Notes: generated from the letters alone by a model not told the origin. Shown: positions 6,989 through 62,087, counted from the first letter of the stretch. The stretch: DNA of 64,000 nt from a virus (IMGVR_UViG_3300005264_000029:1-64000); one strand, 5' to 3'. Numbers and translations: made by a program.

Positions 6989-7195
6989 ATGGTAAAAATA
7001 AATAAAAGAGAATGTGATAAGTGCGAAACATTAGAAAATGTATCAACCTATAGTAAAGATTCAGAGAGTTATGATTTATGTGCTAATTGTTTAAAAGAAA
7101 ATATTTTTTATCAATTAGGAGCTAAAAAAATACTTGAAGATATAAAATATGATTTAAATGAATTAGTTGAAGACTATGAGGATACTTACAATTAG
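6989..7195 (+). CDS. array member, zinc ribbon (68 aa)
   Basis: 'CDKCETL...CANC'; ends ...TYN*. Confidence 0.45.
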   Translation: MVKINKRECDKCETLENVSTYSKDSESYDLCANCLKENIFYQLGAKKILEDIKYDLNELVEDYEDTYN

Positions 7196-7207
7196 ATTAA
7201 GTTAAAT

Positions 7208-7405
7208 ATGGCAGAAAAATATACTAAAACTTGGTGTTGTGTTTGTGGTAAAGAAACAATTCATACATATAAAATAAGGCATGGGCATAATCAACAAGAA
7301 ATGAAAAAAGCTCAAAAAGAATTACTTGAGGAATACTTTAAATTTGAAAGAAAAGATAGAAATTCTTTTATGATTTCAGAATTAAACAAACTTTCAAACA
7401 ATTAG
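7208..7405 (+). CDS. array member, zinc ribbon, C-term ...KLSNN (65 aa)
   Basis: 'CCVCGKE'; 5' 104 bp duplicated at 7794-7897. Confidence 0.45.
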   Translation: MAEKYTKTWCCVCGKETIHTYKIRHGHNQQEMKKAQKELLEEYFKFERKDRNSFMISELNKLSNN

Positions 7406-7408
7406 AAA

Positions 7409-7513
7409 ATGACAAAAGGAAAAAAAGTATATTTAACAGAAGAACAAGCACTTGAATTAATTGAATTAAGGCAAAAATTAAATTTAGAAAAAAATTTAAG
7501 TGGAATAGAATAA
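7409..7513 (+). CDS. array member (34 aa); duplicated at 10644
   Basis: 102 bp identical to 10644-10745. Confidence 0.35.
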   Translation: MTKGKKVYLTEEQALELIELRQKLNLEKNLSGIE

Positions 7514-11619: not shown

Positions 11620-11621
11620 AC

Positions 11622-12389: not shown

Positions 12390-12390
12390 A

Positions 12391-13124: not shown

Positions 13125-13318
13125 GACACACTGGAAAGAAACCGGTAATTGATTATATCGAACATGCTATCTATGCTATCTCTAGAGATATGTTAAAAAT
13201 TAAAAAAGGAGTTAGAATAATTGATGGTATTAATGATAGTAAGAAATTGTTTAATATTAAAATGCAATTAAAAAACTGTCGTGATGATTATAATCGAAGT
13301 CGAGAAAAAAAGATTTAA
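13121..13318 (+). CDS. hypothetical basic protein (65 aa)
   Basis: ORF track. Confidence 0.4.
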   Translation: MRHTGKKPVIDYIEHAIYAISRDMLKIKKGVRIIDGINDSKKLFNIKMQLKNCRDDYNRSREKKI

Positions 13319-13334
13319 AAGATTTAAAAAGTAT

Positions 13335-13628
13335 TTATTTAAAAATACTTATAAGTCCAAATGCTGCAAGTACAATAATTCCTACTGCAATTAAAGCAAA
13401 TCCTGCGAACACAGTTGTTTGAGTACTTGCTACTCCGTCAACATATCCTGTATCATCCATTGTTAAGGATGTATTATCTACACATGGAGCAACTACTGGT
13501 CCTCCTAAACATGCATTATCTATTTGTGGAGTTGGTAATGCGTCTTTTACTTTAGCTATAACTAAATATCCGATCATAATTACTATTCCGATTCCTATTG
13601 CCGCGATGGCTATTTCCATAAATACCAT
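13335..13628 (-). CDS. small hydrophobic two-helix protein; candidate spindle-virus-type major capsid protein (VP1/VP3-like), paralog A
   Basis: N-term 'MVFMEIAIAAIGIGIVIMIGYLVIA' and C-term 'FAGFALIAVGIIVLAAFGLISIFK' are nearly identical to 13788..14015; fold class inferred. Confidence 0.45.
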   Translation of the reverse strand: MVFMEIAIAAIGIGIVIMIGYLVIAKVKDALPTPQIDNACLGGPVVAPCVDNTSLTMDDTGYVDGVASTQTTVFAGFALIAVGIIVLAAFGLISIFK

Positions 13629-13662
13629 TTTTATATGATATTAATATTATAGCACTTACTCT

Positions 13663-13710
13663 TTATATATGTAATTATTTATGACCACTAGATAATAATT
13701 ACATATATAA
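13663..13710. promoter_or_regulatory. bidirectional class-B promoter: perfect 18-bp inverted repeat TTTATATATGTAATTATT / AATAATTACATATATAAA
   Basis: lies between divergent paralogs; same motif upstream of minus-strand structural genes at 59940, 60556. Confidence 0.55.
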
Positions 13711-13787
13711 ACCTCCAGCGATATAACTTACTATCCTGAGAGAGGAGATGTAAAAATCTTCGCACTCTATAACGGTATTAAATTAAA

Positions 13788-14015
13788 ATGGTATTCATGG
13801 AAATCGCAATCGCAGCTATTGGAATCGGAGTGGTTCTAATGGTAGGTTACTTAGTTGTAGCTCAAGTTAAAGCAGCATTACCAACAGAAAGTTTGGATAA
13901 TGAAACAATTGATGGAATTAATTCCGCGCAAACAACTGTTTTCGCAGGTTTTGCATTAATCGCAGTTGGAATTATTGTTCTAGCAGCATTCGGTCTAATC
14001 AGTATTTTTAAATAA
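13788..14015 (+). CDS. small hydrophobic two-helix protein; candidate major capsid protein, paralog B
   Basis: 75 aa; shares N- and C-terminal helices with 13335..13628. Confidence 0.45.
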   Translation: MVFMEIAIAAIGIGVVLMVGYLVVAQVKAALPTESLDNETIDGINSAQTTVFAGFALIAVGIIVLAAFGLISIFK

Positions 14016-14029
14016 ATACTCTTTTGGCT

Positions 14030-15400
14030 TTTCACAATTCAAACTAAAGGTTTATAAACACTTAATTATTAATATTTCTTAATGACAAAAACTTCTTTAA
14101 AAGTTAGATTGCGAATCAACAAATATAAATACAATATTCTAAAAACATTATGTTTACATTCTAAAAATCTTTATAATCAAGCGAATTATTTAATACAACA
14201 ATATTATAAATATACTGGAAAATATTTAACTTATTATGATATGTATTATATTATGCGAAATCGTGAAAATTTAGAACATGAAATTAATTTTAAAAAATTA
14301 AAATCTGGTGTATCGCAACAAGTACTAATGATACTAGATACAAATTGGAAAGCATATTTTAGAAGTGTTAACGATTGGAAAAAAAATAAATCAAAATATA
14401 ATGGGTTACCAAAACCGCCTGGATATATAAAAGAATATAATAATTTAGTGTATACATATGTGGTATTTCAAAATAAAAATAAATATATTCAGTTGGAAAA
14501 AAAATTAGGAATAAACATAGATATACCAAAACAATTAATAAATAAAAATATAAAACAAATAGAAATAATTTCACGACGAGAATGTTTTGAAGCTGTGTTT
14601 GTGTATGATGACGCAGTAAAGTATAAACAAATTGAAAAGAATGATAATGTATTAGGAATTGATTTAGGATTAAATAATATAGCTACTTGTGTCAGTAATA
14701 ATATAAAACCGTTTGTAATTAATGGTAAACCGTTAAAATCAATAAATCAATATTCTAATAAAAAAATAGCAAAAACTAAAAGTTGCTTGGAACATAGGAA
14801 TACCGTTAAGACAAGTAAGAAGATTATACAATTATATTATAAACGTAATAATAAAATTAGTGATTATTTGCATAAGGCTAGTAGACTAATAGTTAATAAG
14901 TGCGTGGAGAATAATATCTCCAAAGTAATCGTTGGTGATATAAGTAAATCACTTACCAAGATTAATCTTGGTAAAAGAAACAATCAAAATTTCATAAATA
15001 TCTCATTAGGCCAGTTTGTTGATAAAATAAAATACAAACTTGAGAAGCACAATATTAAAACAATTATAACTAATGAGAGTTATACATCAAAGTGTTCATT
15101 CATTGATAATGATACACTTCCACAGAAATTAGATACCAGTAAGAAATTTGTATTTAGTGGTAAAAGAATTAAACGTGGAATGTATAGAACTAAGAATAAT
15201 ATCTTAATAAATGCTGATGTGAATGGTGCTTATAATATAATTAGAAAAGTAATACCAAAGTTTGATATTAATTTATTAAAGGATGGTATAGAGGGAGACA
15301 CTATGTGTCGTTGGTTACACCCACATAAATTAACTGTATAAGTTTACAGTCTTTATGGTATTCAAATATTATTTAAAACTAAAGGTTTATAAATAATTAA
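14030..15400 (+). mobile_element. IS200/IS605-family TnpB-only (IS1341-like) element or domesticated derivative
   Basis: TnpB ORF flanked by 'AAACTAAAGGTTTATAAA' at 14036 and 15374; no tnpA. Confidence 0.5.
14082..15341 (+). CDS. tnpB: TnpB/OrfB-like RuvC-fold protein; RuvC-II and zinc finger appear degenerate
   Basis: 'GIDLGLNNIATCV' (RuvC-I), 'NFINISLGQFVDKIKYKLEKHNIKTIITNESYTSKCS', 'NADVNGAYNIIRK' (RuvC-III); expected 'xEDL' reads 'VIVGDI' and only one Cys remains in the CxxC...CxxC region. Confidence 0.75.
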   Translation: MTKTSLKVRLRINKYKYNILKTLCLHSKNLYNQANYLIQQYYKYTGKYLTYYDMYYIMRNRENLEHEINFKKLKSGVSQQVLMILDTNWKAYFRSVNDWKKNKSKYNGLPKPPGYIKEYNNLVYTYVVFQNKNKYIQLEKKLGINIDIPKQLINKNIKQIEIISRRECFEAVFVYDDAVKYKQIEKNDNVLGIDLGLNNIATCVSNNIKPFVINGKPLKSINQYSNKKIAKTKSCLEHRNTVKTSKKIIQLYYKRNNKISDYLHKASRLIVNKCVENNISKVIVGDISKSLTKINLGKRNNQNFINISLGQFVDKIKYKLEKHNIKTIITNESYTSKCSFIDNDTLPQKLDTSKKFVFSGKRIKRGMYRTKNNILINADVNGAYNIIRKVIPKFDINLLKDGIEGDTMCRWLHPHKLTV

Positions 15401-15430: not shown

Positions 15431-15736
15431 TTGATAATAGAAATTTTTATTCTGCTACAGTGTTTTACAATAGTTCTATTTTTACTAGCTTGGTATAGGC
15501 AAGAACCGATGATGTGGGTCTTGGGGTTTATTTTCTCTGCAATAAATATATTTGCATCGTACAATGTTGAATATGTTGTTATGACTTTTAGTAAAGGAGT
15601 TCTCGAACAAAATATGATATCGATGAGCTACCCAGTAGTTTCGTATATAAATATGATTTTTCTCGCAATAAGTATGTTAATGTTTTTTTGGGATATATTT
15701 GATCCTAGGAACGAGCCTCTTCAAAGAAGCGATTAA
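15431..15736 (+). CDS. membrane protein (101 aa)
   Basis: ORF track; three hydrophobic segments. Confidence 0.45.
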   Translation: MIIEIFILLQCFTIVLFLLAWYRQEPMMWVLGFIFSAINIFASYNVEYVVMTFSKGVLEQNMISMSYPVVSYINMIFLAISMLMFFWDIFDPRNEPLQRSD

Positions 15737-15761
15737 ATAATAACATTATAATAAAATAAAT

Positions 15762-16313
15762 ATGGTAGAAAATAACGAAAATAATATAACAGGAGCTAAT
15801 TCTCAAGTAGTTGAAGCTGAGCAACCGCAACAACAATCAGTGTTTCCATCTAATGTACAAAACACTGGATATAATATGTATAGTGGAATGTCTAATGAAA
15901 ACTATCCAGTAGCCGAAGGAGATCAAATGATGAACTCATTGATGTCTGATAAAAATATTCCTAAATCAGTATTGAATAAATATTGGTGGGTATTTGCAAA
16001 AGATGTTGTTTTAACTTTCTTAGATAAAGATAGAAAGAAAGCTAAATTATTAGCATTTGATATTTCTAGAATTAATTATTTACTAACACTTCCTTATTAT
16101 CAATACGATTGGAAGATCGAACAGGAGTTAGATAATATTAGAAATATATACGATATTAAATTAGACAGAGCGTTAGGGACAGATAAGTCTACACAGATTA
16201 ACGAGAGAATAGCACAACGTTCACAGTTTAGTGAACAAAGACAAACAATGTCCGAAGGGGGATCTGGAACCGTTAGAGATGGTTTTTTATCCAGGATGCT
16301 TAGAAGGAAATAA
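15762..16313 (+). CDS. hypothetical protein (183 aa), Q/N-rich N-terminus
   Basis: ORF track. Confidence 0.5.
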   Translation: MVENNENNITGANSQVVEAEQPQQQSVFPSNVQNTGYNMYSGMSNENYPVAEGDQMMNSLMSDKNIPKSVLNKYWWVFAKDVVLTFLDKDRKKAKLLAFDISRINYLLTLPYYQYDWKIEQELDNIRNIYDIKLDRALGTDKSTQINERIAQRSQFSEQRQTMSEGGSGTVRDGFLSRMLRRK

Positions 16314-16353
16314 ATTAAAATAAGCATCACATTAATATAATATAAATATAACA

Positions 16354-18042
16354 ATGGTATTCAAGAAAAAAGTAAAAGAAGAAGTTATTGTAGATCCTAT
16401 GTCAAGTAGTCCATTTGATAATATGAAGGAACCAAATGTTCCAAAGATTAATACTGAGTCTGTAGAAAAACCTATAGAAGAGATTAAAATAAAAGACCCT
16501 GTTGAAACACCAATTGAAAAACCTATAACTATTAAAAAATCTGATGAAGTTATAGAACCAAAAATAACAATTAATTCTGCAGCAAATATTGAGGAATCTC
16601 TTGAAGAGGTTGATGGTGATGAAACTGTCGAGATGTCTGAGGAGGAATTCGAAAAATTGAAAGCCTCAGGTGAACTAGGTGAGATAGAAGAAGATAATGT
16701 TGTTGATGCTTTACAACAAGGAGAGGAAAATATTGAGGAACTTAAAGGTAAATTGGAAAGACAAAAATTAGCAGATGATGTTAATGAAGGAACCTTTAAA
16801 CCTGATAAAATTATTGAACCTAAAACTACTCCTAATGTAGAATCTAATATTCCATCACAAGAAGAACTGATTGATATTATTAAAAAACAAGAAGCGCATA
16901 ATATTCAAATGCAAGAAGCCATGGTTCAGCAACAGCAATCGATGCAAACTATGAGGGCAAAAGAAGTTGGAAAGGTACAACCAGTAAATAATACATACAA
17001 CGGTAGAAATATGCCATCAGCTCCAGATAGAATCGATGATAGTAATGGACCAATGCCAGGAGCTAAACCAAAATCTAAATGGAATATTTTATCCAAATTA
17101 AAAAATGATGGTACTCAAATTCCGAAAGTTATACCTCAAGGACAAAATATAAATAGTTCTGATTTAGTTGGTGGTGGACAAGAGAAAGCAATTAAAGCAA
17201 AGAAAGACTTTGATATTATTTGGAAAATAACTACAGGAGTATTTGGATTTTCCACAGTTGGATTACTTGGTGGAATGTTTATGTTTAATGGATCTATGGT
17301 ATGGATTGGTGGAACATTCACATTTTTTATATTGTTCTTATTGATGTTTGGATTTATTATGTATCTTGGAAAAAAGACTCATGCTATGCTTGAGTTTAAG
17401 GCTATGGTTACAGGTAAACCTATTTCATTATTCTTTACCGACCATAAAAGAATTGATTGGAAAGTTATTGAACCCGAGGGAAACATTTTAGTTGATGAAC
17501 AATATGGAGCTTTCTTAGTAAATGAAAAAGGTGCTTATGTAGATCAGAAAACTAAAAATGTATTCTTAGCATTCAATCCGGCAATTGGATCTAATGCAGC
17601 AGTTGAGTGTTTTAAAATTACTGATGTATTATCGAAAGTACTTAGAGATGAAAAATATCTTGCAGAGATTAGAGAAGCTTTATTACATGGTGAATTAGCT
17701 GGAGAAGATATCGTATTTCAAATTAATGGTAAGGAAGAAAGATTAAAGAGATTTGATAAGCTTAAAGAGAATGTTGATTTCTCACATTTAAAATCAATAC
17801 TTAATACATTAATTCCACATGCAATTAATTCAAAAATTGAAATGACTGTGCAGCAAAGAATGGGTGGAGCTTCAAAAATAAATACAGCACAAATTATACT
17901 TGTGGCGCTATCTATAATTATGGCTGGAGGATTTGTTATCATGATGCTTAACATGTATGGTGGAGGTGGAGGTACAACAACTATAGTTAAAGAAGTTGCA
18001 GCACCAGTAGCAGCTCAAGCAGCATCAACAATAGCAGGATAA
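16354..18042 (+). CDS. large membrane protein: acidic N-terminal region, central TM cluster, C-terminal TM and Gly-rich tail
   Basis: ORF track 562 aa; hydrophobic 'GVFGFSTVGLLGGMFMF...FILFLLMFGFIMYLG'. Confidence 0.55.
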   Translation: MVFKKKVKEEVIVDPMSSSPFDNMKEPNVPKINTESVEKPIEEIKIKDPVETPIEKPITIKKSDEVIEPKITINSAANIEESLEEVDGDETVEMSEEEFEKLKASGELGEIEEDNVVDALQQGEENIEELKGKLERQKLADDVNEGTFKPDKIIEPKTTPNVESNIPSQEELIDIIKKQEAHNIQMQEAMVQQQQSMQTMRAKEVGKVQPVNNTYNGRNMPSAPDRIDDSNGPMPGAKPKSKWNILSKLKNDGTQIPKVIPQGQNINSSDLVGGGQEKAIKAKKDFDIIWKITTGVFGFSTVGLLGGMFMFNGSMVWIGGTFTFFILFLLMFGFIMYLGKKTHAMLEFKAMVTGKPISLFFTDHKRIDWKVIEPEGNILVDEQYGAFLVNEKGAYVDQKTKNVFLAFNPAIGSNAAVECFKITDVLSKVLRDEKYLAEIREALLHGELAGEDIVFQINGKEERLKRFDKLKENVDFSHLKSILNTLIPHAINSKIEMTVQQRMGGASKINTAQIILVALSIIMAGGFVIMMLNMYGGGGGTTTIVKEVAAPVAAQAASTIAG

Positions 18043-18104
18043 ATAAAATGAACGAAGAGAATTTTAATTTACCGACTGAAGTGCAACGAAAGGAGGATAA
18101 ATAA

Positions 18105-18797
18105 ATGGCAGCAACAGGAAATAATAGTTGGAAAAATTACTCGGCAAATTATGCATCGACAGGTCAAGAGATTAAATCTCATTCATCTGTTTTATTTAAT
18201 GAAAGACTTAATGCTTTATTTATGATGTATGATACCGAGGTTATTGATTTAGATATTAAACCAGACGTTAAAAAGATACTTAGAGCTAGATCATTACTTT
18301 CAACCATTTGGAGAAATGTTAGACCTATCATATCTAATAATCCAAAGGCTAGACATATTATGAGTATGAATACTAAACACGATGGAGTGTATACTCCTGA
18401 TATGGGGTTTAGTCATATACAAGAATGTATAGCTGAAATGGTAATTCAAAATGATTATGCATATCCAAAATTAATGTATACTATACAACAGATACAAAAT
18501 ATTGAAACAATAATCAGAGAGGTTATGCAGTTTTTCAGTTACTTCATTAGACAAGACTCATCACAGAAACCTGATATTAATGTGGCATCACAGAAATACC
18601 AGAAGATGGCAGACGAGAAAACGGTTGAAGAATTTAGAGATACACTTGGTGATAGAACACAAATCGCCGATGAATCTCATGAGAAGCCTGTAGGTGATGA
18701 GTTTTTTGATGATATGTCAGATTACTTATTATCTGACAAATCGCAGGATGAAGACGATATAAAATTTGCAAATGATACACACGGTGAAACAAAATGA
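18105..18797 (+). CDS. hypothetical protein (230 aa), acidic C-terminus
   Basis: ORF track; 'AGGAGGATAAATAAATGG' SD. Confidence 0.55.
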   Translation: MAATGNNSWKNYSANYASTGQEIKSHSSVLFNERLNALFMMYDTEVIDLDIKPDVKKILRARSLLSTIWRNVRPIISNNPKARHIMSMNTKHDGVYTPDMGFSHIQECIAEMVIQNDYAYPKLMYTIQQIQNIETIIREVMQFFSYFIRQDSSQKPDINVASQKYQKMADEKTVEEFRDTLGDRTQIADESHEKPVGDEFFDDMSDYLLSDKSQDEDDIKFANDTHGETK

Positions 18798-19174
18798 ATA
18801 ACTCAATATATATTAGTAAGCTTTCAGGCATAACTATACCTGAGAAACAATGGAAACTTATGACAAGTGAAGAGAAAATAGAATATGAAACTAGATATAG
18901 TTTTAATCTGGGAGTTAATCTTGGAATAATAAGTAATTTTATTTTAACAACTGCTGTCGTAATGATGTCGTACGCTGTATTAATATTACAACAACCTGAG
19001 AACTTACAGGATTTAGCAACGATAGGGAACTCTCTTGCCTTATTAATAAAGGCTATTTGGATAGTAGTTTTATCTATGATATCAATTGAATTAGTTACAA
19101 CACTTTGGAGATTTTATAAGTTATTGAATTGGAAAAAGACTCTTAATTTGAAAGATAGAGAGGATGATAAATAA
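18794..19174 (+). CDS. membrane protein (126 aa)
   Basis: ORF track; ATGA overlap. Confidence 0.5.
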   Translation: MNNSIYISKLSGITIPEKQWKLMTSEEKIEYETRYSFNLGVNLGIISNFILTTAVVMMSYAVLILQQPENLQDLATIGNSLALLIKAIWIVVLSMISIELVTTLWRFYKLLNWKKTLNLKDREDDK

Positions 19175-19175
19175 A

Positions 19176-19232
19176 ATGGTAATGAAGATCGAGAATGAAG
19201 TTCGAGTTCTGAATGGAGTGGTAGCGAAATGA
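19176..19232 (+). CDS. 18-aa leader mini-ORF (MVMKIENEVRVLNGVVAK) overlapping next gene start by ATGA
   Basis: paralog of 3625..3681. Confidence 0.25.
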   Translation: MVMKIENEVRVLNGVVAK

Positions 19233-19471
19233 AGACAAAAACAATAACAATTAGAAAAATTAAAAGGTCGTCAAAGCCAGTTAATGTTAATCCTGGAATA
19301 GTAACTATGAAAGCTGAGAAGTCTCCTAAATTACTGCGTAAGAGTAATGCAAAGCCTATAAAGAAAACAACTAAGTTGAAAGTAAAGAAATGTAAGCCGG
19401 CAAAGAAACTTAAAAAATCATTAGTATCTGCAGGTAATAAATTTAAAAAGGCTATACTTTCAAAAATTTAA
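19229..19471 (+). CDS. highly basic Lys-rich small protein (80 aa), probable DNA-binding protein
   Basis: about 35% K/R: 'KPIKKTTKLKVKKCKPAKKLKK'. Confidence 0.5.
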   Translation: MKTKTITIRKIKRSSKPVNVNPGIVTMKAEKSPKLLRKSNAKPIKKTTKLKVKKCKPAKKLKKSLVSAGNKFKKAILSKI

Positions 19472-19473
19472 AA

Positions 19474-19716
19474 ATGGAATCTATAAAAAAATCAAAATCT
19501 GATATGTTAGAAATATCTGTACCAAAGGAATGGATACAATCATTTATTACTGCAGGACAAAACTATCAGAACAGAATTGAGTATTTAGAAAGAGAAGAAA
19601 AAATATCAGCATATAAATTGCAACGTATTAGGGACACTACAATGTACGACCTTGAAGCTGGAATGGAATATTTTAGAACTTTATTAGGAGTTACAAAACA
19701 AGAGGATACCGAATAG
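19474..19716 (+). CDS. hypothetical protein (80 aa)
   Basis: ORF track; abuts integrase start. Confidence 0.45.
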   Translation: MESIKKSKSDMLEISVPKEWIQSFITAGQNYQNRIEYLEREEKISAYKLQRIRDTTMYDLEAGMEYFRTLLGVTKQEDTE

Positions 19717-20661
19717 ATGTCTGCATTTGGAGAGATAGGAGAAGTATCTGTACTTATTGATTATGAGGAATATATGAAACGTCTTGGTCACAAACCATCA
19801 TATATATATCCTTCAATGGTGGCACTGCGATGTTTCGTAAAGGAAGGATATAATTGGGAGAAGTATGAAGACTATAATAGATTCTTAATAAAACACACCG
19901 TTAATAAAAGATCTACTGCTTACTTTGATGTATTAAAGAAATTTGTTAAATGGAAATTTAAGGAAGATAGAGAATTAAAAAATATAGTACTTGAATCTAT
20001 TCAGATGACAGGTAAAAAAGCTAGAGATCCTAAACCAAGAAACTCTATAATTACCGAAGCTGAACAAATGAGAATAATTCAAAACATAAAAACACCAAAA
20101 CATCAATTAATAGCATGGCTTCAAAAAGAATCAGGTGTTCGTGCCGGTGATGTACTTCGTACTTTAAAAGATAATTTTAAAATGGGAATGTATACTGATG
20201 ATGATGGCAGTGTGAGAAAAGTAATGGATATTGTATTTGTTAAGAAAGGTGACAGAGTTGCAAAGATTCCTATTTTTAATCCACATTTAATTCAATACTT
20301 AAAAGTACATTTAGAAAATTTAGATGGTGATGAAGATCTAGCGTTTATTAATAGAGATGTTGTTAGTAAAAAAAATAAAGATAATGAATATGCACTTATT
20401 CGTAGAAACTATAATTTATATCATGCTGATCTGAAACAAGCTTGTGATGATCTTGGATATGACTCAGGACAATTCTCAACTCACGATTGGAGAAGAAATT
20501 TTGCAAATAGAATTTGGGTTGATGTTCTTAAGAAAAATGATATCGTGGCACTCCAACGTGCGATGGGTCATTCACAAGTTGAAACAACGGCAATCTATTT
20601 AAGACAATCAGGATTACAAAGTAGAGATATATACAAACAGTCATATGATTTATCTAAATAA
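19717..20661 (+). CDS. int: tyrosine recombinase/integrase (XerC/D-like)
   Basis: 'GVRAGDVLRTL' (Arg-I), 'THDWRRNFA' (H-x-x-R), 'GHSQVETTAIYLR' (catalytic Tyr). Confidence 0.8.
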   Translation: MSAFGEIGEVSVLIDYEEYMKRLGHKPSYIYPSMVALRCFVKEGYNWEKYEDYNRFLIKHTVNKRSTAYFDVLKKFVKWKFKEDRELKNIVLESIQMTGKKARDPKPRNSIITEAEQMRIIQNIKTPKHQLIAWLQKESGVRAGDVLRTLKDNFKMGMYTDDDGSVRKVMDIVFVKKGDRVAKIPIFNPHLIQYLKVHLENLDGDEDLAFINRDVVSKKNKDNEYALIRRNYNLYHADLKQACDDLGYDSGQFSTHDWRRNFANRIWVDVLKKNDIVALQRAMGHSQVETTAIYLRQSGLQSRDIYKQSYDLSK

Positions 20662-25960: not shown

Positions 25961-26072
25961 TATCTTAATTACATATACTTCTTTCATTTCGCTACGTTGC
26001 ACTACACTCGTGAATATTATTAAAGCTAACGCTTTAATTACATATATAAATTATTAACCATATATAATATAT

Positions 26073-26552
26073 ATGAATGAATTTCTAAAGACATTAATAG
26101 AAGGTCTAGTATTTACATTATTAATTATGATCATTGTGTTCTCAGGGATTTATGGAATGTTATTCGTGTTAGATACTAAATATAACACGCACGTCCTTAC
26201 AGAACCTCTACCAGTTTTTAAACATAATAATATACAGAATTCTCATAGTGAATATAGATCAGGCCTATTACATCATATGGCTAGGGAATTAAACTATACA
26301 GTGAATGTAGTCGCTGGAGCAAGTATGGAGCCTACTATTTTCGACGGTGATAATTTTATATGCGATCCTAAATTAACTCCTCAGATAGGAGATATAGTTC
26401 TAGTTAATAGAATTAATAATACCGAGTATGTACATAGAATACGCGCTATTTATTCAGATCATGTAGTTACTCAAGGTGATGATAATAACTATATAGATCC
26501 AGATATTAATATGTCTGATATAGAATGTGTGGTCGTAGGTGTATACTACTGA
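26073..26552 (+). CDS. type I signal peptidase (S26/Sec11-like; SF clan)
   Basis: N-terminal TM anchor; 'VVAGASMEPTIFDGD' (Ser box), 'GDIVLVNRINNTEYVHRIRA' (His where S24 has Lys), 'GDDNNYIDPD' (GDNN box). Confidence 0.6.
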   Translation: MNEFLKTLIEGLVFTLLIMIIVFSGIYGMLFVLDTKYNTHVLTEPLPVFKHNNIQNSHSEYRSGLLHHMARELNYTVNVVAGASMEPTIFDGDNFICDPKLTPQIGDIVLVNRINNTEYVHRIRAIYSDHVVTQGDDNNYIDPDINMSDIECVVVGVYY

Positions 26553-43992: not shown

Positions 43993-44232
43993 TTATTTAA
44001 TTTTTGTAAAATAGATGTTAAAATCAAAAGGTTTTTTCTTTGTAATCACAAGTGTATTATTAGGACCATTTAGAATCATTACATTATCAGTGTATCGATT
44101 TAAATTGTTTATGATTCTAGTAATATACGTTTCATTAATAGTCTTTTTGTCAAAGACTATTTGATTTTGTACTTTTAAATTACTGAACTTATTATATACA
44201 TCGAATTTTTGTGTTATTATTTTTATAGCCAT
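43993..44232 (-). CDS. hypothetical protein (79 aa)
   Basis: ORF track. Confidence 0.4.
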   Translation of the reverse strand: MAIKIITQKFDVYNKFSNLKVQNQIVFDKKTINETYITRIINNLNRYTDNVMILNGPNNTLVITKKKPFDFNIYFTKIK

Positions 44233-44234
44233 AT

Positions 44235-44528
44235 TTATTTTTTGAATGATATCTTATATAGTATTGCTGCCATTTCTAATACAAGTACTGAAACTAATGT
44301 ATATCTAAGTATTGGATCTACTTCATCTATAAATACTGATGCGAAAAACAATGTTGTCGTAAATGACAAATTCAAAGATTTTGTACCCATATAAAGCATT
44401 GTTTTAAATGCGAAAAATATCAATGTGATAAACCAGCCTTCAAACGATCCATTAAACATTATTGTGGCTGCACTAAAAATACTCCCATTAATTAATTCAT
44501 TCCATCCTGTTACGTTACCTATTACCAT
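44235..44528 (-). CDS. membrane protein (97 aa)
   Basis: ORF track; hydrophobic. Confidence 0.45.
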   Translation of the reverse strand: MVIGNVTGWNELINGSIFSAATIMFNGSFEGWFITLIFFAFKTMLYMGTKSLNLSFTTTLFFASVFIDEVDPILRYTLVSVLVLEMAAILYKISFKK

Positions 44529-44563
44529 TTTATTTTTAATTATACCCTAAAGGGTATAATATC

Positions 44564-44983
44564 TTAGCCCTCCTTATTTAGTTCTTTACCAGTGAACAAT
44601 GCAAATAGACTTAAACTATACATTATAGATATTAACCCATTTAAATACATTTCAAATGCTTGTGCTTCTGATGGTAGTATTCCAAGTATTATCTTTGGCG
44701 CAGCATATAAATAATCTGTCATAAAATCCATTGCATCAACTATAAATCCAAGTCCTAATAATCCTAATAAATTATCAGCCCAATTAGTTTCTGTTTGAAC
44801 AGGAACTTGATCAAACACTGTTGTATTAGTATTTTGCGAATCATAAATATCCATTTTTGCAAATTGTTCCTCATCAAATGATATTTGTTGTCCTACATAA
44901 TCCATCTCAAGTGCGTTGATTGTTATTCCTGATGCTATATTTATCATCAAAGTATATATTACTAATTTCCAAGCTAAATTCAT
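44564..44983 (-). CDS. membrane protein (139 aa), translationally coupled to giant gene
   Basis: start overlaps stop of 44980..50232 by ATGA. Confidence 0.5.
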   Translation of the reverse strand: MNLAWKLVIYTLMINIASGITINALEMDYVGQQISFDEEQFAKMDIYDSQNTNTTVFDQVPVQTETNWADNLLGLLGLGFIVDAMDFMTDYLYAAPKIILGILPSEAQAFEMYLNGLISIMYSLSLFALFTGKELNKEG

Positions 44984-47900
44984 TGTTTTTCACCCTCTCT
45001 TAACATACTTAGTATCGCAAGCAAAATTGCTGCAGATATTGCTACCCATGATAATGCGAACCATCCAAAGTATACCATCATTGCTGCAACAACGGATAAT
45101 ACCAATGATCCAGCAGTTGCAGATTTTGCTGTAAGTGTTAATGCCAAGAACCCTAAAAAGATTGTGATAATCCAATTCATGTCCATATTGAAGTTAACTA
45201 ACCCTAAACTTATTTCTCCATTTTCTCTCATTGAATCTCTATCAGAAACTATTCCATAATCTGTTATACCTTCAACCAATACATCAAGAGTTCTATTAAT
45301 ATATTCTGCAGGTGTCAAATAAACTAATTCAACACTACTTTGTCCAACCACTGTATTAGTATATACTAACTCACCATGTGGTCCATCTAATCTTACTTCC
45401 ATCTTAACCTCTTGAGTTGTACCTGAAATATCTTCCCACTTACCATACACAGTACCATTTATTTGATCTGAATATACAGACACTTTATCAGATATTACAG
45501 TTTGAGAAACTGAGAATGCAAGATCAAACAATGCTAAAGTTTCTACAACTGATTGTGTTGCTGTATAAAAACCTATACTTCTAATTGGTTGATTAGCAGA
45601 TTCAACTTCTAATATATACTGTTCGTTTTGAATTAAAAATGCAGTAACCTTTCCAGCTGCATCTGTTTTATCCCATGTAATTTCTTGAGATGTACCTTCA
45701 ATATTTCTCTTAAACGATAATGACAAATCGTCATAATCATTTAATAAATCAAACATATTAAACACTGCTGTAACTGCACTTGTTGTAAGTACATCAATTA
45801 AATATACTTTTTGATTAAGTACATCTTCATCAACTCTTACAGTTCTAAAGTAACTTGAATCTGAATATTGTAAATCAAATTTAAGTTTCTCCACTTCACA
45901 ATTAATCGGTACTACGAAATTGTCTTCAGTAATTGTTATTTGTGATACAGATGAATCTTCACAAATTGTTTGAAGTGTAATTATTATAGCACCTGATATA
46001 TTAAATGCTCCGAAATCTTTTTCATCAAGTAATGAAAAATTAAATACTGGCCCAAGTGTAATAGGTAATGTTTCAAACACTGTCGAATTTGATTTATTAA
46101 ACAATGTATATTTTGAACCATATTGTGATTTGGACGATCCAAAGTTATAATTACCAGGATTGATATATGTTAAATAATATGAAGTGTTTCCTGTACTTCC
46201 AATGTTACCTATTGTAGATTCATTAATAGTTACATAATCAATATCATTACCTGTCATTGCTGATGAATATGTAAAGTTAATTCTATACAAATCAACATTT
46301 ACGGTATTGTTATCTTCTACATTATTACTAACACTATCATAAATTGAAATATCTACTGTAGCATTACCTAAATTACTAAATATAAAACTTGCATTATAAC
46401 AACTTCCTAGATTCTGTACTACTTGTCCGTCTTCTGTAATCTGAGCGTTACATGTAACAGGAGTTAAATCTGTAATTGATATATAATCTGTTAAGTTAAG
46501 CGTTCTATCATTTAAATTAATAGTATCTGGAAATGATATATTTAATGTAGGTGCTGTATTATCTACATAAAATACATGGTTATTCTTATTGCTCGAAGTT
46601 CCATCTAAATACCAATTAGTATAAATACCCTCACTGAAATTCTGTACATAAAATCTAGGAGTAACTAATTCATGTCTTTGGTTATCGATTACATCAAGTA
46701 CTTCAGTATTTGAATGTTTATTAAAATCGTAATTAGCAACTAAGTTATCAGTTGAAACTTTGAAATATTCTTCATTATACAAATCAGTAACTTCTTGTTG
46801 CGATAAAGATTTATTATAGATTCTAATTTCATCAAGGTCTCCATTATATAACGCGTCACCCATTGAAATTGTAAAATCATTATCAGTTAGTACACTTCCA
46901 GATGCTATACTATTTATAGTAGTTACTAATTCGTTATTTACATACAAATGCATAGCTGTATCATTTCTAATAGCTACTATGTGATTCCATGTATTTAAAT
47001 TTGTAGCAGGACCTGAGACACTATGTTGTGTACCACTATACCAATCGTAAAATTCTGCTCTATTGTTTGCACCACATCTTATTAGCATCTTATTACTTGT
47101 ACTTCTCTGTTTAATAAGAGTGTCTATATTACATGCTGATTCAGGATTATACCATAATGAAATAGCATATTCATTAGTTAAAGATAAATCTAACCCTTCT
47201 GCACTACCAACACTAATATAATCATCTACACCATCGAAATGTACTCCTCTATCTTCTCTTTCAAATATAGGTTCCCCTGTAATAAATTCAAGATCTGGGT
47301 TTTCTAAATCAACTGTTGTTCCCCTGTAATCATATAGGTTCTCATAATCTAAAGTACCAGTTTCATATAATTCTAAAACTTCTGTTGCATTAAGTGCTTG
47401 ATTAAGTATTACTATATCATCAAGTTTACCCTGATACCAATAATTGATCTTATCATAATATGTTCCTATAACTGTATGTGAATCAGCTTCACTAATTTCA
47501 CCAGAGCAATATCCTGTATGGGCCGAATCTAAAACACCGTCAACATAAATATATACATTTGTATCTGATCTTGTAATAGTTACAGTATGTTCATTATTAT
47601 CATTATATAATCCAGTTGAATATTTTGATAATGCTGTACCATCTGAATTACAAAATGCTCTAATTTTACCATTTTGTATACCAATCATATTTCTATCAGT
47701 ATATCCTTGACTTCCACCGTATTTATCCATTACTACAGTATCAGCATTTTGTGTTGTAATAAATTTAAATCCTATTGTAAAATCATTTCCTGGCATTGGA
47801 ATATCGAGATCTACATAATCATCAACTCCATCGAATCCAAGAACCTCTTTTGGCTCGTAATTATTAATAGCTTCTCCAAGAGTCATAATGTTATCCCCTT

Positions 47901-50232: not shown

Positions 50233-50288
50233 TGTAAAAGTATCACTTCCAGAAATTTGATGTAAATTATCAATTTCTACATAATCAT

Positions 50289-53200
50289 CTACTCATAGTT
50301 TTCATAGTTTACTTTTCCTGTATTATATAGTTCAGTAATTTCTGCTTGTGTTAAAGCTACATCTAAGATCTTTACATCATCGATTTCTCCATCAAAAAAT
50401 TCACTAGTTCCTCCATAACTTCCAAAATATATTTCGTCAGGAATATTAGGTATATTAATATTTGCAGAAGTTCTTTGATTTTGTAAAACACCATCTAAAT
50501 ATGTTTTAAATCCATTAACAGTGTTTTTTTCCCAAGTTAATGTTATCATATGCCAATTATCATCATAATAATTTCCAAAAGATACTCCACCACCTACTCC
50601 ACCATCGAAAGATAATATTGCTTCATCATTGTATGGTAATACGATATAATCACCAGATTGTATTCTAAATGCACTTCTAGTTGTAGCGTCATCTGTTTTT
50701 ATAAATAAATTAATTGTTAATTTAGATCCAGATAAATCTATATTTTTATTATATTGAACATAATCATCAACACCATCAAAACTTACTCCCCTATCTGTAC
50801 TCCAAGTTACTCCATTTTCTAGACTTCCTTGAACTGCTGAATGAACACCTACTCCATTTGTTAGAGTTCCTGTAATATCTTGATCTCTTGTTATAGATCC
50901 TAGATCATAATTAAAACCATATAATTCATTTCCGGCATCTGCTGTACCTGTAATTAAATATACTTTATCATTATATTCAAATTGTGATGGTGTATTATAT
51001 AATCCTACATCTCCAATAGAATTAATTATTTCTAAATCCATTTGCCATGCTGAATCTTTCCATACATAACCATATACAACACCGTTATATTCACCAGCAA
51101 TTAAATATCTTTCTCCATTAACCTCAAATACATCAGGTGAAGCTCGCTGTCCAATATCTCCAAGTCCAGAAATATATGATGAATCTGATACCCAAGCATT
51201 TGTTACCCATTTAAAAGATTCAAATGTTCCATCTTCCATTCCAGATATTAATATCCAATCAGTACCATCATGATAAACTTCAGGAGAAGAATAAATTAAT
51301 CCTCTAGAATCTCCTGGTTCATCAATTATTCCGTTAGTTATTGCTGTGTTTACCGACCACGCAGATCCAGTCCATTCATATCCTCTATTCTGATCATTCA
51401 TACTTCCCATGATTAAATACCATGTACTATCCTTATAGAATACTGTAGATTGTAAATAATCAATTCCTTCAGTAATTCCAGCCTCTATTGGAGCGTTAGG
51501 TTTCCAAGATACACCATTCCATTCATAACCAGTACATTGCCCAGATGAAATACATTGAATATTGTAAAGATTACCGTCCATTGTAAATACTTCAGGTTGT
51601 ACTCCTGAACTTGATCCTGGTAATCCATTAAGTAAATTTGTATCAGCAAACCATTTCTGATCTGTTTCTAAATTATATCCGTCGAATGTTCCGTCTTGAT
51701 CACCAGTTATAGTGTACCATGTATTTAACATATAAAATGTTGAAGCTGTAGAATAAGTGCCAACATCAGAAAGTCCACTAATCACTTCGGCATTTACACT
51801 CCATGAAGATCCTCCCCATATATACCCATCGAAATCTCCTACAGAATTTCCAATAACTAAATATAAATTCCCATCTTTTTCAAATGTTTTTGGTTTAGAT
51901 CGGCTGCCTACATCTGGAAGTCCACTAATTATACCTGCATCAGATGACCATGAAGATCCTCCCCATATATACCCATTGAAAACACCGTCATGTTCACCAG
52001 ATATTAAATACCAATTATCATTCAGATAAAATATAGTAGGTGCAGAATGCGATCCTACATCTGGAAGTCCACTAATTATACCTGCATCAGATGACCATGA
52101 GGATCCTCCCCATATATACCCATCGAAATCTCCATCGAAATTTCCATTAATTAAATATAAATTTCCATCTTTTTCAAATGTTGTAGGTGAAATGTAAGAT
52201 CCAGAAAGTCCACTAATTATACCTGCATCAGATGACCATGATGATCCTCCCCATATATGACCATTTGCTGAACTTCCAGATATTAAATACCATTCATTAT
52301 CAACTTCGAAAACTACTAAATCAGCATATGATCCAACATCTCCTAAACCTGAAATGATTTGTGTATTTGACAACCATGGGAAATCGTTACCTGTAACAGT
52401 ATCCATTATACTTCCATCATTAGTTGTTTTACCATTTACACTTCCATATAATTCGGCTTGTGTACCTGCAACTTGATTCATATCATAAGCAGTTATACCT
52501 TCTGTTTCTTCGAACGAAAATGATGAAACTAGGTTTTCATTCCTTCTTGGAATAGATGACTCCATTTCAGCCTTAATTTCTTCTTGTGATAAGGCAGCAT
52601 CCCAAATTCTTACTTCATCAAGTGACCCGTTGAAATGTTGTATATCTAATGGGTGCGCTCCTAATGTATCAACTAAAGAATAATCAAGTGCGTGATTGGC
52701 TTCATTTTGTTGATCTATTAATATTCCATCTATATATAACTGTTGAACAGATGTAGCTCCAGTTTCCCAATAATTTCCACAGTAATAATGCCAATCTTTA
52801 TATTCATCATACGTGATTGGTGATTGAATTGTTCGTGCACCTGAATTATCAAACCGCCATACTATATCTGTATATGTTGTAAAATCTCTAAATCCTAAAG
52901 TATGTGTTTCACCTACAACCATATTAAATGATGTTACTGTACCTAACATATCAGAATTGTGTTTAGCCCATGTACAATATGTTAATGCCGTTGCTGTAGC
53001 GTCTGGAGTCATCATATCCATTGATATTTTATCGTCTACACCATCGAATTCTAATGCTTTCCCATATTTACCTGTAGCTGTTTCACCTACTGTAATTGTA
53101 CCTGTCCCTTCTGAGAAATCGAAGAAATATCCTTCCGTTCTATCTATTTCACTTAATGCAGATCTACCATTTTTATATAATTCTTGTACTTCAGTATTTG

Positions 53201-57840: not shown

Positions 57841-57866
57841 AGGTTTATATATGTATTTAGAAGAAT
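57841..57866 (-). promoter_or_regulatory. class-B promoter variant upstream of giant gene
   Basis: +strand 'AGGTTTATATATGTATTTAGAAG' = minus-strand TATATAAACCT TATA about 20 nt before start. Confidence 0.4.
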
Positions 57867-59906: not shown

Positions 59907-59939
59907 AATTATATCTTGATGACTAAAGTTTATATATGT

Positions 59940-59964
59940 AATTATTATCTAGAATTATATGTGT
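59940..59964 (-). promoter_or_regulatory. class-B promoter (+strand GTTTATATATGTAATTATTATCTAG)
   Basis: identical to 60556-60581 and to arms of 13663-13710. Confidence 0.5.
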
Positions 59965-60337: not shown

Positions 60338-60532
60338 TTATTGAAAGAAGTTAGCTAGGTTTACTCTCATTACCTTACTTCCAGGATTAGCCTGCTCTAA
60401 TTGTTTACCTTTATGGATTGCTTCAAGTACTGAATTAGCATTTACATACTCTGTTCTATACTTTAAAGCTCCTGGTACTTTTATGTCAACCTTAAAAGGT
60501 CTTTCATGTGGTGTTCCGTGCATTCTTACCAT
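60338..60532 (-). CDS. small basic protein (64 aa), possible DNA-binding
   Basis: ORF track; class-B promoter directly upstream. Confidence 0.4.
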   Translation of the reverse strand: MVRMHGTPHERPFKVDIKVPGALKYRTEYVNANSVLEAIHKGKQLEQANPGSKVMRVNLANFFQ

Positions 60533-60555: not shown

Positions 60556-60581
60556 GGTTTATATATGTAATTATTATCTAG
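60556..60581 (-). promoter_or_regulatory. class-B promoter
   Basis: GGTTTATATATGTAATTATTATCTAG on + strand. Confidence 0.5.
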
Positions 60582-62037: not shown

Positions 62038-62087
62038 ATGTATAATTAGAAACTTTGATACTTATATATGTATTTAAAAAATAATTA

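What the first reader, a model, noticed from the sequence alone, without database searches (positions are those of the whole stretch)
13335..14015. Divergent pair of paralogous 75-97-aa two-helix hydrophobic proteins driven by a perfect inverted-repeat promoter
The two genes share almost identical N-terminal ('MVFMEIAIAAIGIG..') and C-terminal ('FAGFALIAVGIIVLAAFGLISIFK') helices and diverge in the middle and at the nucleotide level. They are transcribed outward from an 18-bp perfect inverted repeat (13663-13680 / 13693-13710) that carries the class-B TATA motif. The size and two-helix layout match major capsid proteins of spindle-shaped archaeal viruses (SSV1 VP1/VP3, His1 VP21 class). A virus-encoded type I signal peptidase (26073..26552) could process such precursors.
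Basis: partly seen in the sequence, partly recalled or inferred. Interest (0 to 1): 0.65.

Follow-up and report, generated by a model that had tools for sequence, protein, structure and literature searches.

The report
Capsid-like hairpin gene pair, archaeal virus
Two back-to-back genes encode tiny, very hydrophobic two-helix proteins of a large, undescribed and highly conserved family that is most likely the shell protein of big spindle-virus-like archaeal viruses, although no direct sequence link to known spindle-virus capsid proteins could be shown.

Summary
ORFs 13335..13628(-) (97 aa) and 13788..14015(+) (75 aa) are real paralogs. Helix 2 shows 11 synonymous and 0 non-synonymous differences.

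The inverted repeat is not a special palindrome. It is two copies of a TATA-type box that also sits 22-25 nt before the ATG of five other genes.

The proteins belong to a family of at least 889 clusters with no Pfam, PHROG or PDB match. In 102 loci the copies lie in a conserved module: giant lectin-domain protein, small membrane proteins, 1-4 hairpin genes, then an integrase. Of 104 adjacent pairs, 102 are tandem; only this window and one close relative are divergent.

In 159 of 162 members the loop carries an N-glycosylation sequon. Long forms carry paired cysteines.

Profile and fold comparisons with SSV1 VP1/VP3 and His1 VP21 are uninformative. However, the same contigs encode an ATPase homologous to His1 ORF16 (hhalign 94.5%, E 8e-8). 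The window's contig also has a DUF5658 protein, as SSV1 does.

Best reading: VP1/VP3-like major virion proteins of a new group of large archaeal viruses. The signal-peptidase link is not supported.

The parts
13335..13628 (-). Long paralog (97 aa). Two hydrophobic helices (about residues 1-31 and 66-97). The loop has a 22-residue insertion with 2 Cys and an N-T-S sequon.
   Evidence: It is 65% identical to the 96-aa long form of L001.
13788..14015 (+). Short paralog (75 aa). Helices at 2-30 and 38-74. The loop carries an N-E-T sequon.
13662..13679 (-). TATA-type promoter box AATAATTACATATATAAA for the long paralog. It ends 33 nt before the ATG at 13628.
13694..13711 (+). Identical box for the short paralog, 76 nt before the ATG at 13788. 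Relatives have about the same spacing.
13680..13693 (.). 14-nt spacer between the two boxes. It is not conserved in L028.
14016..14040 (+). T-runs directly after the stop codon of the short paralog (CTCTTTTGGCTTTTC). Inferred to be an oligo-T terminator.
   Evidence: read from the sequence; inference
13300..13334 (-). T-runs after the stop codon of the long paralog on the minus strand. Inferred terminator. The inverted duplication extends 9 nt past both stop codons.
   Evidence: inference
14038..15400 (+). TnpB-only IS element (TnpB gene 14082..15341) inserted between the hairpin gene and the next core gene. It is bounded by 28-nt direct repeats at 14038-14065 and 15373-15400.
   Evidence: It is absent at this site in relatives.
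15431..20661 (+). Conserved downstream core: 101-aa membrane protein, 183-aa, 562-aa and 230-aa proteins of unknown function, then a tyrosine integrase at 19717..20661.
43993..57821 (-). Conserved upstream core, which lies directly before the hairpin genes in most relatives. It comprises giant Laminin_G_3 proteins (50289..57821 and 44980..50232), then 139-aa, 97-aa and 79-aa membrane proteins.
57844..57861 (-). Near copy of the box, 22 nt before the ATG of the 2510-aa lectin-domain gene.
59929..59946 (-). Perfect copy of the box, 22 nt before the ATG of the 512-aa Gly/Ser/Gln-rich protein.
60558..60575 (-). Perfect copy of the box, 25 nt before the ATG of a 64-aa ORF (60338..60532).
62061..62072 (-). 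Core of the box with 1 mismatch, 23 nt before the ATG of the 285-aa gene.
26033..26050 (+). Box with 2 mismatches, 22 nt before the ATG of the peptidase gene.
26073..26552 (+). Membrane-anchored S24/S26-fold peptidase with an N-terminal TM segment and a GASMEPT motif. A link to the hairpin proteins is not shown.

Best explanation
The two genes encode the short (VP1-like) and long (VP3-like) forms of the main structural hairpin protein of a large archaeal virus.

Proposed mechanism. Each protein inserts into the host membrane as an alpha-helical hairpin with both ends inside. The loop faces outward and is N-glycosylated; in the long form it is also disulfide-bonded. The invariant helices of the two forms pack side by side into a hydrophobic, membrane-like shell around the DNA. 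This is the known mode of assembly of spindle-shaped and related archaeal viruses.

Each gene is a separate transcription unit. An 18-bp TATA-type box also heads the other presumed virion genes, including the giant lectin-domain fibre or adhesin proteins, so all of them would be switched on together. The divergent orientation is a lineage-specific rearrangement of an ancestrally tandem, co-transcribed cluster.

Shown: paralogy, purifying selection, hairpin architecture, sequon and cysteine patterns, conserved synteny, recurrence of the box, and co-occurrence with a His1 ORF16-like ATPase.

Inferred: presence in the virion, lattice formation, glycosylation, promoter activity and virion shape.
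For: 1. Family. There are 889 clusters at E <= 0.01, 72-96% identical, nearly all 72-75 aa. At 50% clustering there are 56 representatives at E <= 1e-10.

2. Selection. Helix 2 has 0 non-synonymous and 11 synonymous differences between the two copies.

3. Architecture. The AF2 model is a hairpin with pLDDT 88. Hydrophobicity equals or exceeds that of SSV1 VP1/VP3 and His1 VP21.

4. Loop features. 159 of 162 distinct members have N-x-S/T in the loop, against 61 expected. None has a sequon in the helices. In 38 of 41 long forms the loop has 2 or 4 Cys.

5. Pair structure. Short plus long forms with the same C-terminal helix mirror SSV1 VP1 and VP3. Some relatives carry 65-90-residue N-terminal extensions like the VP1 precursor.

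6. Synteny. In 13 or more loci the order is giant Laminin_G_3 protein, three small membrane proteins, 1-4 hairpin genes, a membrane protein, three unknown proteins, then an integrase.

7. Expression signals. The first copy in relatives has the TATA-like box, and every copy there has a strong GGAGG ribosome-binding site.

8. Mobile, non-cellular distribution. Only 6 loci occur in 185,579 species genomes, all on short contigs binned to unrelated bacteria. IMG/VR holds 82.6-kb and 116-kb viral contigs with the family.

9. No conventional capsid, portal or terminase hit in the ORFs scanned, which were most of those of 90 aa or more.

10. ATPase. A roughly 350-aa ATPase family lies on the same contigs. 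This was confirmed for the window's contig and for Ga0310129_0000167. For five further contigs it is inferred from matching contig lengths. It aligns to His1 ORF16 at 94.5% probability, E 8e-8, over 171 columns. The reversed control gives P = 0.39, and other P-loop proteins give P >= 0.002.

11. A DUF5658 protein scores above the Pfam cut-off on the window's contig, and SSV1 carries one too.

12. Circularly permuted relatives (ectodomain, then helix 2, then helix 1) keep the same topology. One is encoded directly after three hairpin genes.
Against: No sequence or profile similarity to known MCPs could be shown. hhalign probabilities are 1.2-2.6%. The phmmer best score is 15.0 bits against 15.4 bits for reversed controls. 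The PDB profile search gives 0 hits.

The ATPase is not adjacent to the hairpin genes. It lies about 56 kb away here and about 24 kb away in Ga0310129_0000167.

The contigs are 50-126 kb. From my own recollection, this is larger than any known spindle-shaped virus. About 48 kb of this contig was not seen and could hold other capsid genes.

A related contig carries family A DNA polymerase and 7-deazaguanine genes. From my own knowledge, these are more usual in tailed phages.

No virion, transcript or glycan data exist.
Confidence: 0.6

Rival explanations
1. They are viral membrane proteins but not the capsid lattice. Examples would be components of a lipid envelope or of a host-membrane assembly or egress site, while the true capsid protein is one of the many unannotated genes.
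For: The hairpin topology with an external glycosylated loop fits any integral membrane protein. The element also encodes TatC, an SPFH protein and a signal-peptidase-like enzyme, which together form a membrane toolkit. Most ORFs have no annotation, and about 48 kb of the contig is unseen.
Against: Conservation of both helices is extreme. The genes occur as 1-4 tandem copies, each with a strong ribosome-binding site. They sit at a fixed place in a structural-looking module. The genomes co-occur with a spindle-virus-type ATPase. No other capsid candidate was found.
Confidence: 0.2
2. They are small two-TM lysis or exclusion proteins, such as class II holin-like or superinfection-exclusion proteins.
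For: The size and two transmembrane segments fit class II holins (this comparison is from my own knowledge). The neighbouring 124-aa ORF at 12750..13124 matches phrog_1486 'membrane protein'.
Against: There is no charged C-terminal tail; the protein ends in ...SIFK. No lysin gene lies nearby. Holins are poorly conserved (from my own knowledge), whereas this family is 72-96% identical across environments. The conserved glycosylation sequons, the cysteine-rich long forms and the permuted ectodomain fusions have no holin parallel.
Confidence: 0.06
3. They are cell-surface or membrane proteins of an integrated or plasmid-like non-viral element of DPANN archaea. They would anchor or accompany the giant adhesins.
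For: Some copies sit in a 'Candidatus Pacearchaeota' MAG. Giant Laminin_G_3 proteins with C-terminal TM anchors are adjacent. An integrase is conserved.
Against: The family is almost absent from 185,579 species genomes and is binned inconsistently. IMG/VR classes relatives as viral. The window shows a dense early-gene-like block of tiny CxxC ORFs, a ligase, a resolvase, an exonuclease and a His1-type ATPase, and no ribosomal, tRNA or metabolic housekeeping genes in the roughly 78 kb seen.
Confidence: 0.1
4. They are a degenerate ATP-synthase c-subunit-like proteolipid.
For: The protein is a two-helix hairpin of about 75 aa with a Gly/Ala-rich helix 1 (AIAAIGIG). Foldseek lists a c-ring subunit at E = 3.4.
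Against: There is no Pfam or NCBIfam hit. Helix 2 has no carboxylate. No ATPase operon is present.
Confidence: 0.01

Closest known systems
Fuselloviridae VP1/VP3 (SSV1; SSV19 VP1, PDB 7XDI as cited in PMC10866085)
   Same: Both are proteins of about 73-97 aa with two very hydrophobic helices. The loops carry sequons. There is a short and a long paralog that share the C-terminal helix and differ by a loop insertion. Conservation within the family is very high. Some relatives have VP1-like N-terminal precursor extensions. An integrase and a DUF5658 gene occur in the same genome.
   Different: No detectable sequence similarity. The Pro-containing LVPLFY motif of helix 2 is absent. The host contigs are 50-126 kb, against 15-24 kb for the fusellovirus records fetched here. 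The genes here are divergent rather than tandem.
Halspiviridae (His1): VP21 and the ORF16 ATPase
   Same: VP21 is a 73-aa hairpin with an LPT...N-x-S motif after helix 1, comparable to ALPT..DNET here. The ATPase on the same contigs is homologous to His1 ORF16 at hhalign 94.5%, E 8e-8.
   Different: The similarity to VP21 itself is not significant. His1 is a 14.5-kb linear genome with a protein-primed polymerase. No polymerase was identified among the ORFs scanned in the window.
Putative marine spindle viruses: Thaspiviridae (NSV1) and the proposed 'Nipumfusiviridae' (PMC8491892, PMC10866085)
   Same: These are mesophilic, metagenome-derived elements. Their MCP was assigned from a hydrophobic hairpin, loop sequons and an accompanying ATPase, which is the same style of inference as used here.
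   Different: Their genomes are 27-38 kb. tblastn of the 75-aa, 183-aa and 230-aa proteins against GenBank phage and archaeal-virus records found nothing. NSV1 (MK570053) is not in that collection. Identity with those families could not be tested directly.
Archaeal TATA/BRE promoters with leaderless mRNAs
   Same: An A/T-rich box ends 22-25 nt before the ATG of five genes. From general knowledge, this fits a TATA box centred near -26 with transcription starting at the ATG.
   Different: At the two hairpin genes the box is 33 nt and 76 nt upstream, which implies leaders. No transcript data exist.

Membership tests
Alpha-helical hairpin major capsid proteins of spindle-shaped archaeal viruses | Small protein (about 70-100 aa mature) made of two long hydrophobic alpha-helices joined by a short loop | tested here: met
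   The AF2 model has helices 2-30 and 38-74 with pLDDT 87.9. Hydrophobic segments are 1-33/46-75 and 1-31/66-97. GRAVY is 1.46 and 1.23.
Alpha-helical hairpin major capsid proteins of spindle-shaped archaeal viruses | Exposed loop with N-glycosylation sequon(s) | tested here: met
   159 of 162 members have a sequon in the loop, against 61 expected, and none has one in the helices. Actual glycosylation is not testable here.
Alpha-helical hairpin major capsid proteins of spindle-shaped archaeal viruses | Sequence or profile similarity to VP1/VP3/VP21 | tested here: not met
   hhalign probabilities are 1.2-2.6%. phmmer gives 15.0 bits against 15.4 bits for reversed controls. The PDB profile search gives 0 hits. 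Caveat: the accepted pair fusellovirus-His1 reached only 6% in the same setup.
Alpha-helical hairpin major capsid proteins of spindle-shaped archaeal viruses | Specific structural match to solved MCPs (SSV19 VP1, SMV1 MCP) | tested here: inconclusive
Alpha-helical hairpin major capsid proteins of spindle-shaped archaeal viruses | Same genome encodes the signature AAA+ ATPase (SSV1 B251 / His1 ORF16 type; stated as the signature in bioRxiv 10.1101/2025.02.15.638363) | tested here: met
   The ATPase on the window's contig is intein-split and lies about 5.6-7.8 kb beyond the window's right end. The family profile against His1 ORF16 gives 94.5%, E 8e-8. Against SSV1 B251 it gives only 31.7%, E 5e-4. 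Controls give P >= 0.002. The ATPase is on the same contig as the hairpin genes in Ga0310129_0000167.
Alpha-helical hairpin major capsid proteins of spindle-shaped archaeal viruses | Dominant protein of purified virions | not testable with these tools
   No isolate or proteome is available.
Class II holins | Two TM segments plus a charged cytoplasmic C-terminus, encoded next to a lysin | tested here: not met
   The C-terminus is ...GLISIFK, with a single charge. The neighbours are a 65-aa ORF and TnpB, not a lysin.
ATP synthase c subunit | Essential Asp/Glu in helix 2 and a match to ATP-synt_C | tested here: not met
   Helix 2 is TVFAGFALIAVGIIVLAAFGLISIFK, with no carboxylate. There is no Pfam or NCBIfam hit.
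Archaeal type IV pilins / archaellins | Class III signal peptide (basic N-terminus, then a [KR]G cleavage site before the hydrophobic stretch) | tested here: not met
   The N-terminus is MVFMEIAIAAIG, with no basic segment. There is no family hit.
Type I signal peptidase (S26), for ORF 26073..26552 | N-terminal membrane anchor, a catalytic Ser in an SMxPT-like motif, and a score above the family cut-offs | tested here: inconclusive
   A TM segment and a GASMEPT motif are present. Peptidase_S24 scores 35.8, above its 23.3 cut-off. Peptidase_S26 scores 22.3, below 22.9. sigpep_I_arch scores 31.9, below 51.85.
Archaeal TATA-box promoter, for the 18-bp box | Recurrent A/T-rich box at a fixed distance upstream of gene starts | tested here: met
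   There are 4 perfect copies and 3 near copies. Five of them end 22-25 nt before an ATG. There are 13 hits against 3.3 expected. Transcription starts were not mapped.

The most novel reading that the evidence does not exclude
The family is the shell protein of an unrecognised, environmentally widespread lineage of very large (about 50 to over 120 kb) spindle-virus-related archaeal viruses, possibly infecting DPANN archaea. From my own recollection, that is well above the genome size known for this capsid type.

The hairpin module has also been circularly permuted to plug glycoprotein ectodomains into the same lattice. In addition, the virus brings its own membrane-insertion and processing genes: TatC, an SPFH protein and an S26-like peptidase.
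Probability: 0.35. Interest if true: 0.8.

Novelty: new variant of a known kind. Interest (0 to 1): 0.62.

Why it matters
Hairpin capsid proteins are too short and too hydrophobic for routine annotation, so viruses built from them go unnoticed in metagenomes. This family has hundreds of clusters from marine, sediment, saline-lake and sludge samples.

The family comes with a conserved gene module and a His1-type ATPase. Together these would give a practical marker for a whole group of large archaeal viruses that has no cultured member. If spindle or lattice-shell capsids can hold more than 100 kb, that would also extend the size range considered possible for this architecture.

The short/long pairs and the circularly permuted ectodomain fusions suggest how such shells are decorated.

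I could not read Wu et al., Nat Microbiol 2024, on DPANN viruses (cited in PMC13573593). That paper may already name this group.

Tried and rejected
**Family libraries.** Pfam, PHROGs and NCBIfam scans of both proteins gave only sub-threshold noise.

**GenBank virus records.** tblastn of the 75-aa, 183-aa and 230-aa proteins against GenBank phage and archaeal-virus records gave no match. The low-complexity filter weakens this test for the hairpin protein.

**PDB profile search.** A search with the family profile gave 0 hits at E <= 10.

**Profile comparison.** hhalign against a fusellovirus VP1/VP3 profile and against His1 VP21 was not significant. The known-positive control was also weak.

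**Sequence search with known MCPs.** phmmer of known MCPs against 140 family representatives gave apparent hits at E about 1e-4, but reversed queries scored the same, so I rejected them.

**Other core proteins.** Profiles of the 183-aa, 220-aa and 230-aa core proteins against PDB gave nothing.

**Walker A search.** No motif was found in any plausible ORF of the window. The ATPase was found only outside the window.

**Host inference from TatC.** This failed because the gene is too divergent.

**Genome ends.** No terminal direct or inverted repeats were found in any locus of 6 kb or more, including the seven that span a whole contig.

**IMG/VR.** The window's contig is not in IMG/VR.

**Stop-codon recoding.** I considered this for the giant gene and rejected it: all three stop codons are in normal use, and the two ORFs differ in frame.

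**Bacterial sigma-70 reading of the box.** The number of matches is not above shuffled expectation.

**RNA families.** The Rfam scan of 13-16 kb found nothing.

Full report
**1. What is in the sequence**

BLASTP gives 62% identity, E = 6e-37. The only gap is a 22-residue insertion in the loop of the long form. tblastn finds no third copy in the window.

The first 14 and the last 29 residues are identical, yet the DNA is diverged. Overall dS is about 1.07 and omega is 0.145. In helix 2 there are 11 synonymous and 0 non-synonymous differences over 28 codons. These are two old, strongly constrained genes.

**2. The inverted repeat**

The perfect arms are 13662-13679 and 13694-13711, with a 14-nt spacer. 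The whole span 13326-14024 is an imperfect inverted duplication.

The 18-mer AATAATTACATATATAAA is not private to this locus:
- Perfect copies lie at 59929-59946 and 60558-60575.
- Near copies lie at 26033-26050, 57844-57861 and 62061-62072.
- There are 13 hits with up to 3 mismatches against 3.3 expected.
- At those five other sites the box ends 22-25 nt before an ATG. The genes are the 2510-aa lectin-domain protein, a 512-aa Gly/Ser/Gln-rich protein, a 64-aa ORF, a 285-aa protein and the S24/S26 peptidase.

This is the geometry of an archaeal TATA box driving leaderless mRNAs. That reading rests on general knowledge; no transcript data exist.

At the hairpin genes the spacing is 33 nt for the long form and 76 nt for the short form. 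T-runs follow both stop codons. The 'inverted-repeat promoter' is therefore best read as two back-to-back copies of the element's shared, probably late, promoter.

**3. The family**

The 75-aa protein has 889 cluster-level relatives at E <= 0.01. Nearly all are 72-75 aa and 72-96% identical, from many metagenomes. A full HMM scan of 1.84 billion representatives gives 140 at E <= 1e-3 and 56 at E <= 1e-10. None has a Pfam domain.

In helix 1 the invariant positions are A7, A10, I11, G12, G14, V16, M18, G20, Y21, L22 and V23. Most of helix 2 is also invariant.

AlphaFold gives a confident hairpin.

Across 162 distinct members:
- 159 have an N-x-S/T sequon in the loop, against 61 expected from shuffling the loop.
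- None has a sequon in the helices.
- In 38 of 41 long forms the loop has 2 or 4 cysteines.

The loop is therefore almost certainly extracytoplasmic.

Some relatives carry 65-90-residue N-terminal extensions, as the SSV1 VP1 precursor does. Others are circular permutations: a glycosylated ectodomain, then helix 2, then helix 1. These preserve the topology. One such gene directly follows three hairpin genes in L043.

**4. Context**

In 102 loci the family sits in a conserved module, in this order:
- a giant Laminin_G_3 protein;
- three small membrane proteins (about 140, 100 and 77 aa);
- 1-4 hairpin genes;
- a membrane protein of about 100 aa;
- sometimes large variable proteins;
- three unknown proteins (about 190, 220 and 220 aa);
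- a tyrosine integrase.

Sixty-seven loci have two or more copies, typically one long and one to three short. Of 104 adjacent pairs, 102 are tandem. The two divergent cases are this window and L028, a relative with 84% nucleotide identity that keeps both TATA cores but not the flanks or the spacer.

In relatives the box precedes only the first copy, and each copy has a strong GGAGG ribosome-binding site.

In the window lineage the giant-protein block lies on the other strand (43993-57821). The same is true in L020. A TnpB-only IS with 28-nt direct repeats has inserted just after the short gene. The divergent layout is thus a derived rearrangement, not a design feature of the family.

**5. What kind of element**

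The window is part of a 126,202-bp metagenome contig. In the roughly 78 kb seen there are no tRNA genes and no housekeeping genes were identified. The region instead contains:
- about 35 tiny ORFs, many with CxxC motifs;
- a Holliday-junction resolvase, an ATP-dependent ligase, an exonuclease, a repair protein and an integrase;
- a divergent TatC, an SPFH protein and a membrane-anchored S24/S26-fold peptidase.

None of the scanned ORFs, which covered most of those of 90 aa or more, hit a known capsid, portal or terminase family.

The family is nearly absent from 185,579 species genomes: 6 loci, all on short contigs binned to unrelated bacteria. It does occur on IMG/VR contigs of 82.6 and 116 kb.

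The best family matches have an archaeal flavour: XerA_Arch, TatC-Arch and sigpep_I_arch. One MAG label is Pacearchaeota.

**6. Testing the capsid idea**

Direct tests are uninformative.
- Profile comparisons with fusellovirus VP1/VP3 and His1 VP21 give 1-3% probability. The accepted fusellovirus-His1 pair reaches only 6% in the same setup.
- phmmer scores equal those of reversed controls.
- The PDB profile search is empty.
- The fold matches thousands of unrelated hairpins.

Homology of the hairpin protein itself is therefore unproven and, with these tools, unprovable.

Indirect tests are positive. Just beyond the window's right end, at about 69.6-71.8 kb in window coordinates, the same contig encodes a P-loop ATPase. 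Its Walker B motif is interrupted by an intein. The spliced protein defines a conserved family of about 350 aa. This family lies on the same contig as the hairpin genes in Ga0310129_0000167. For five further contigs the same is inferred from matching contig lengths.

The ATPase profile aligns to His1 ORF16 at 94.5% probability, E 8e-8, over 171 columns. The controls are P = 0.39 for the reversed sequence and P >= 0.002 for other P-loop proteins. The match to SSV1 B251 is weak: 31.7%, E 5e-4.

A hydrophobic hairpin MCP plus this ATPase is the stated signature of spindle-shaped viruses (bioRxiv 10.1101/2025.02.15.638363).

A DUF5658 protein scoring above the Pfam cut-off sits at the head of the late block. 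SSV1 carries one as well.

**7. Verdict**

The most likely reading (about 0.6) is that these are the VP1-like and VP3-like major virion proteins of a new group of large archaeal viruses related in morphogenesis to spindle-shaped viruses.

The main rival (about 0.2) is a viral membrane protein that is not the shell subunit.

The signal-peptidase idea is not supported. The two proteins have no removable extension, and the peptidase has no homolog in related loci, although it does share the promoter box.

Caveats:
- About 48 kb of the contig is unseen.
- A related contig carries family A polymerase and 7-deazaguanine genes.
- The DPANN virus paper of Wu et al. 2024 could not be read.

Noticed in passing
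window 14038-15400: A TnpB-only IS element (TnpB gene 14082..15341; OrfB_IS605 plus the Cas12f-like TNB domain). It is bounded by 28-nt direct repeats (89% identical) that include a promoter-like AAACTAAAGGTTTATAAA. The element is absent at this site in relatives.
   Followed up: partly
window 44980-57821 (minus strand): The 2510-aa and 1750-aa Laminin_G_3 ORFs abut in different reading frames. The ENA record calls one gene of 4353 aa, and relatives have single genes of up to 4044 aa. This could be a frameshift, a sequencing error or programmed frameshifting. Stop-codon recoding is excluded.
   Followed up: partly
window 732-6157: Genes on the virus-like contig encode a divergent TatC (33% identity or less to cellular TatC, with only two close relatives known), a Holliday-junction resolvase, an SPFH/Band 7 protein and an ATP-dependent DNA ligase. 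A homologous ligase also lies next to the module in L020.
   Followed up: partly
window 6498-12700: About 35 closely packed plus-strand ORFs of 40-100 aa. Many have CxxC pairs, and a striking number end in Asn (...TIN, ...TYN, ...SNN, ...TDN) with starts abutting the previous stop codon. This looks like a viral early-gene block.
   Followed up: no
window 58368-59906 and 60338-60532 (minus strand): Two further genes stand behind perfect copies of the 18-bp box. One is a 512-aa Gly/Ser/Gln-rich protein with six QFTGG-type repeats and a basic C-terminus. The other is a 64-aa ORF. They may be internal or DNA-associated virion proteins.
   Followed up: no
window 30001-36000: A stretch with only 16-18.5% G+C, against 27% for the whole window.
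   Followed up: no
whole window: No Walker A motif ([AG]xxxxGK[ST]) occurs in any ORF of 45 aa or more. No convincing GK[ST] context occurs in any plausible ORF. This is unusual for 64 kb of a large virus.
   Followed up: yes
L110 253-2392 (about 69.6-71.8 kb in window coordinates, outside the window): A P-loop ATPase with an intein plus an HNH endonuclease inserted exactly in the Walker B motif (..PIL|C...HN|CDEA..). Many relatives lack the intein and several carry one. The family is homologous to His1 ORF16.
   Followed up: yes
L110 6599-6901 (about 65.1-65.4 kb in window coordinates, outside the window): A 100-aa DUF5658 membrane protein (27.6 bits against a 25.2 cut-off) directly upstream of the 998-aa gene. 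The window truncates that gene to a 570-aa ORF. SSV1 ORF 7122..7430 is annotated as DUF5658 and shares the D..T..GL..G...NP motif.
   Followed up: partly
L043 9555-10250; also P0170, P0173, P0175, P0181, P0184, P0188, P0190: Circularly permuted relatives: a signal peptide and a sequon-rich ectodomain, then helix 2, a short turn, and helix 1 at the C-terminus. One of these is encoded right after three hairpin genes.
   Followed up: partly
L111 and L112 (contigs carrying the ATPase family): The ATPase is preceded by an XPB-like SF2 helicase. L112 also carries an RFC-like AAA+ protein, the QueC / GTP cyclohydrolase I / TGT genes (7-deazaguanine pathway), a pyrimidine-dimer glycosylase and a family A DNA polymerase.
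   Followed up: no
window 13675-13646 (minus strand): The long paralog's upstream region also reads as ATTACA, 18 nt, TGnTATAAT, which scores 10 of 12 as a bacterial-type promoter. The number of such matches in the region is not above shuffled expectation.
   Followed up: yes
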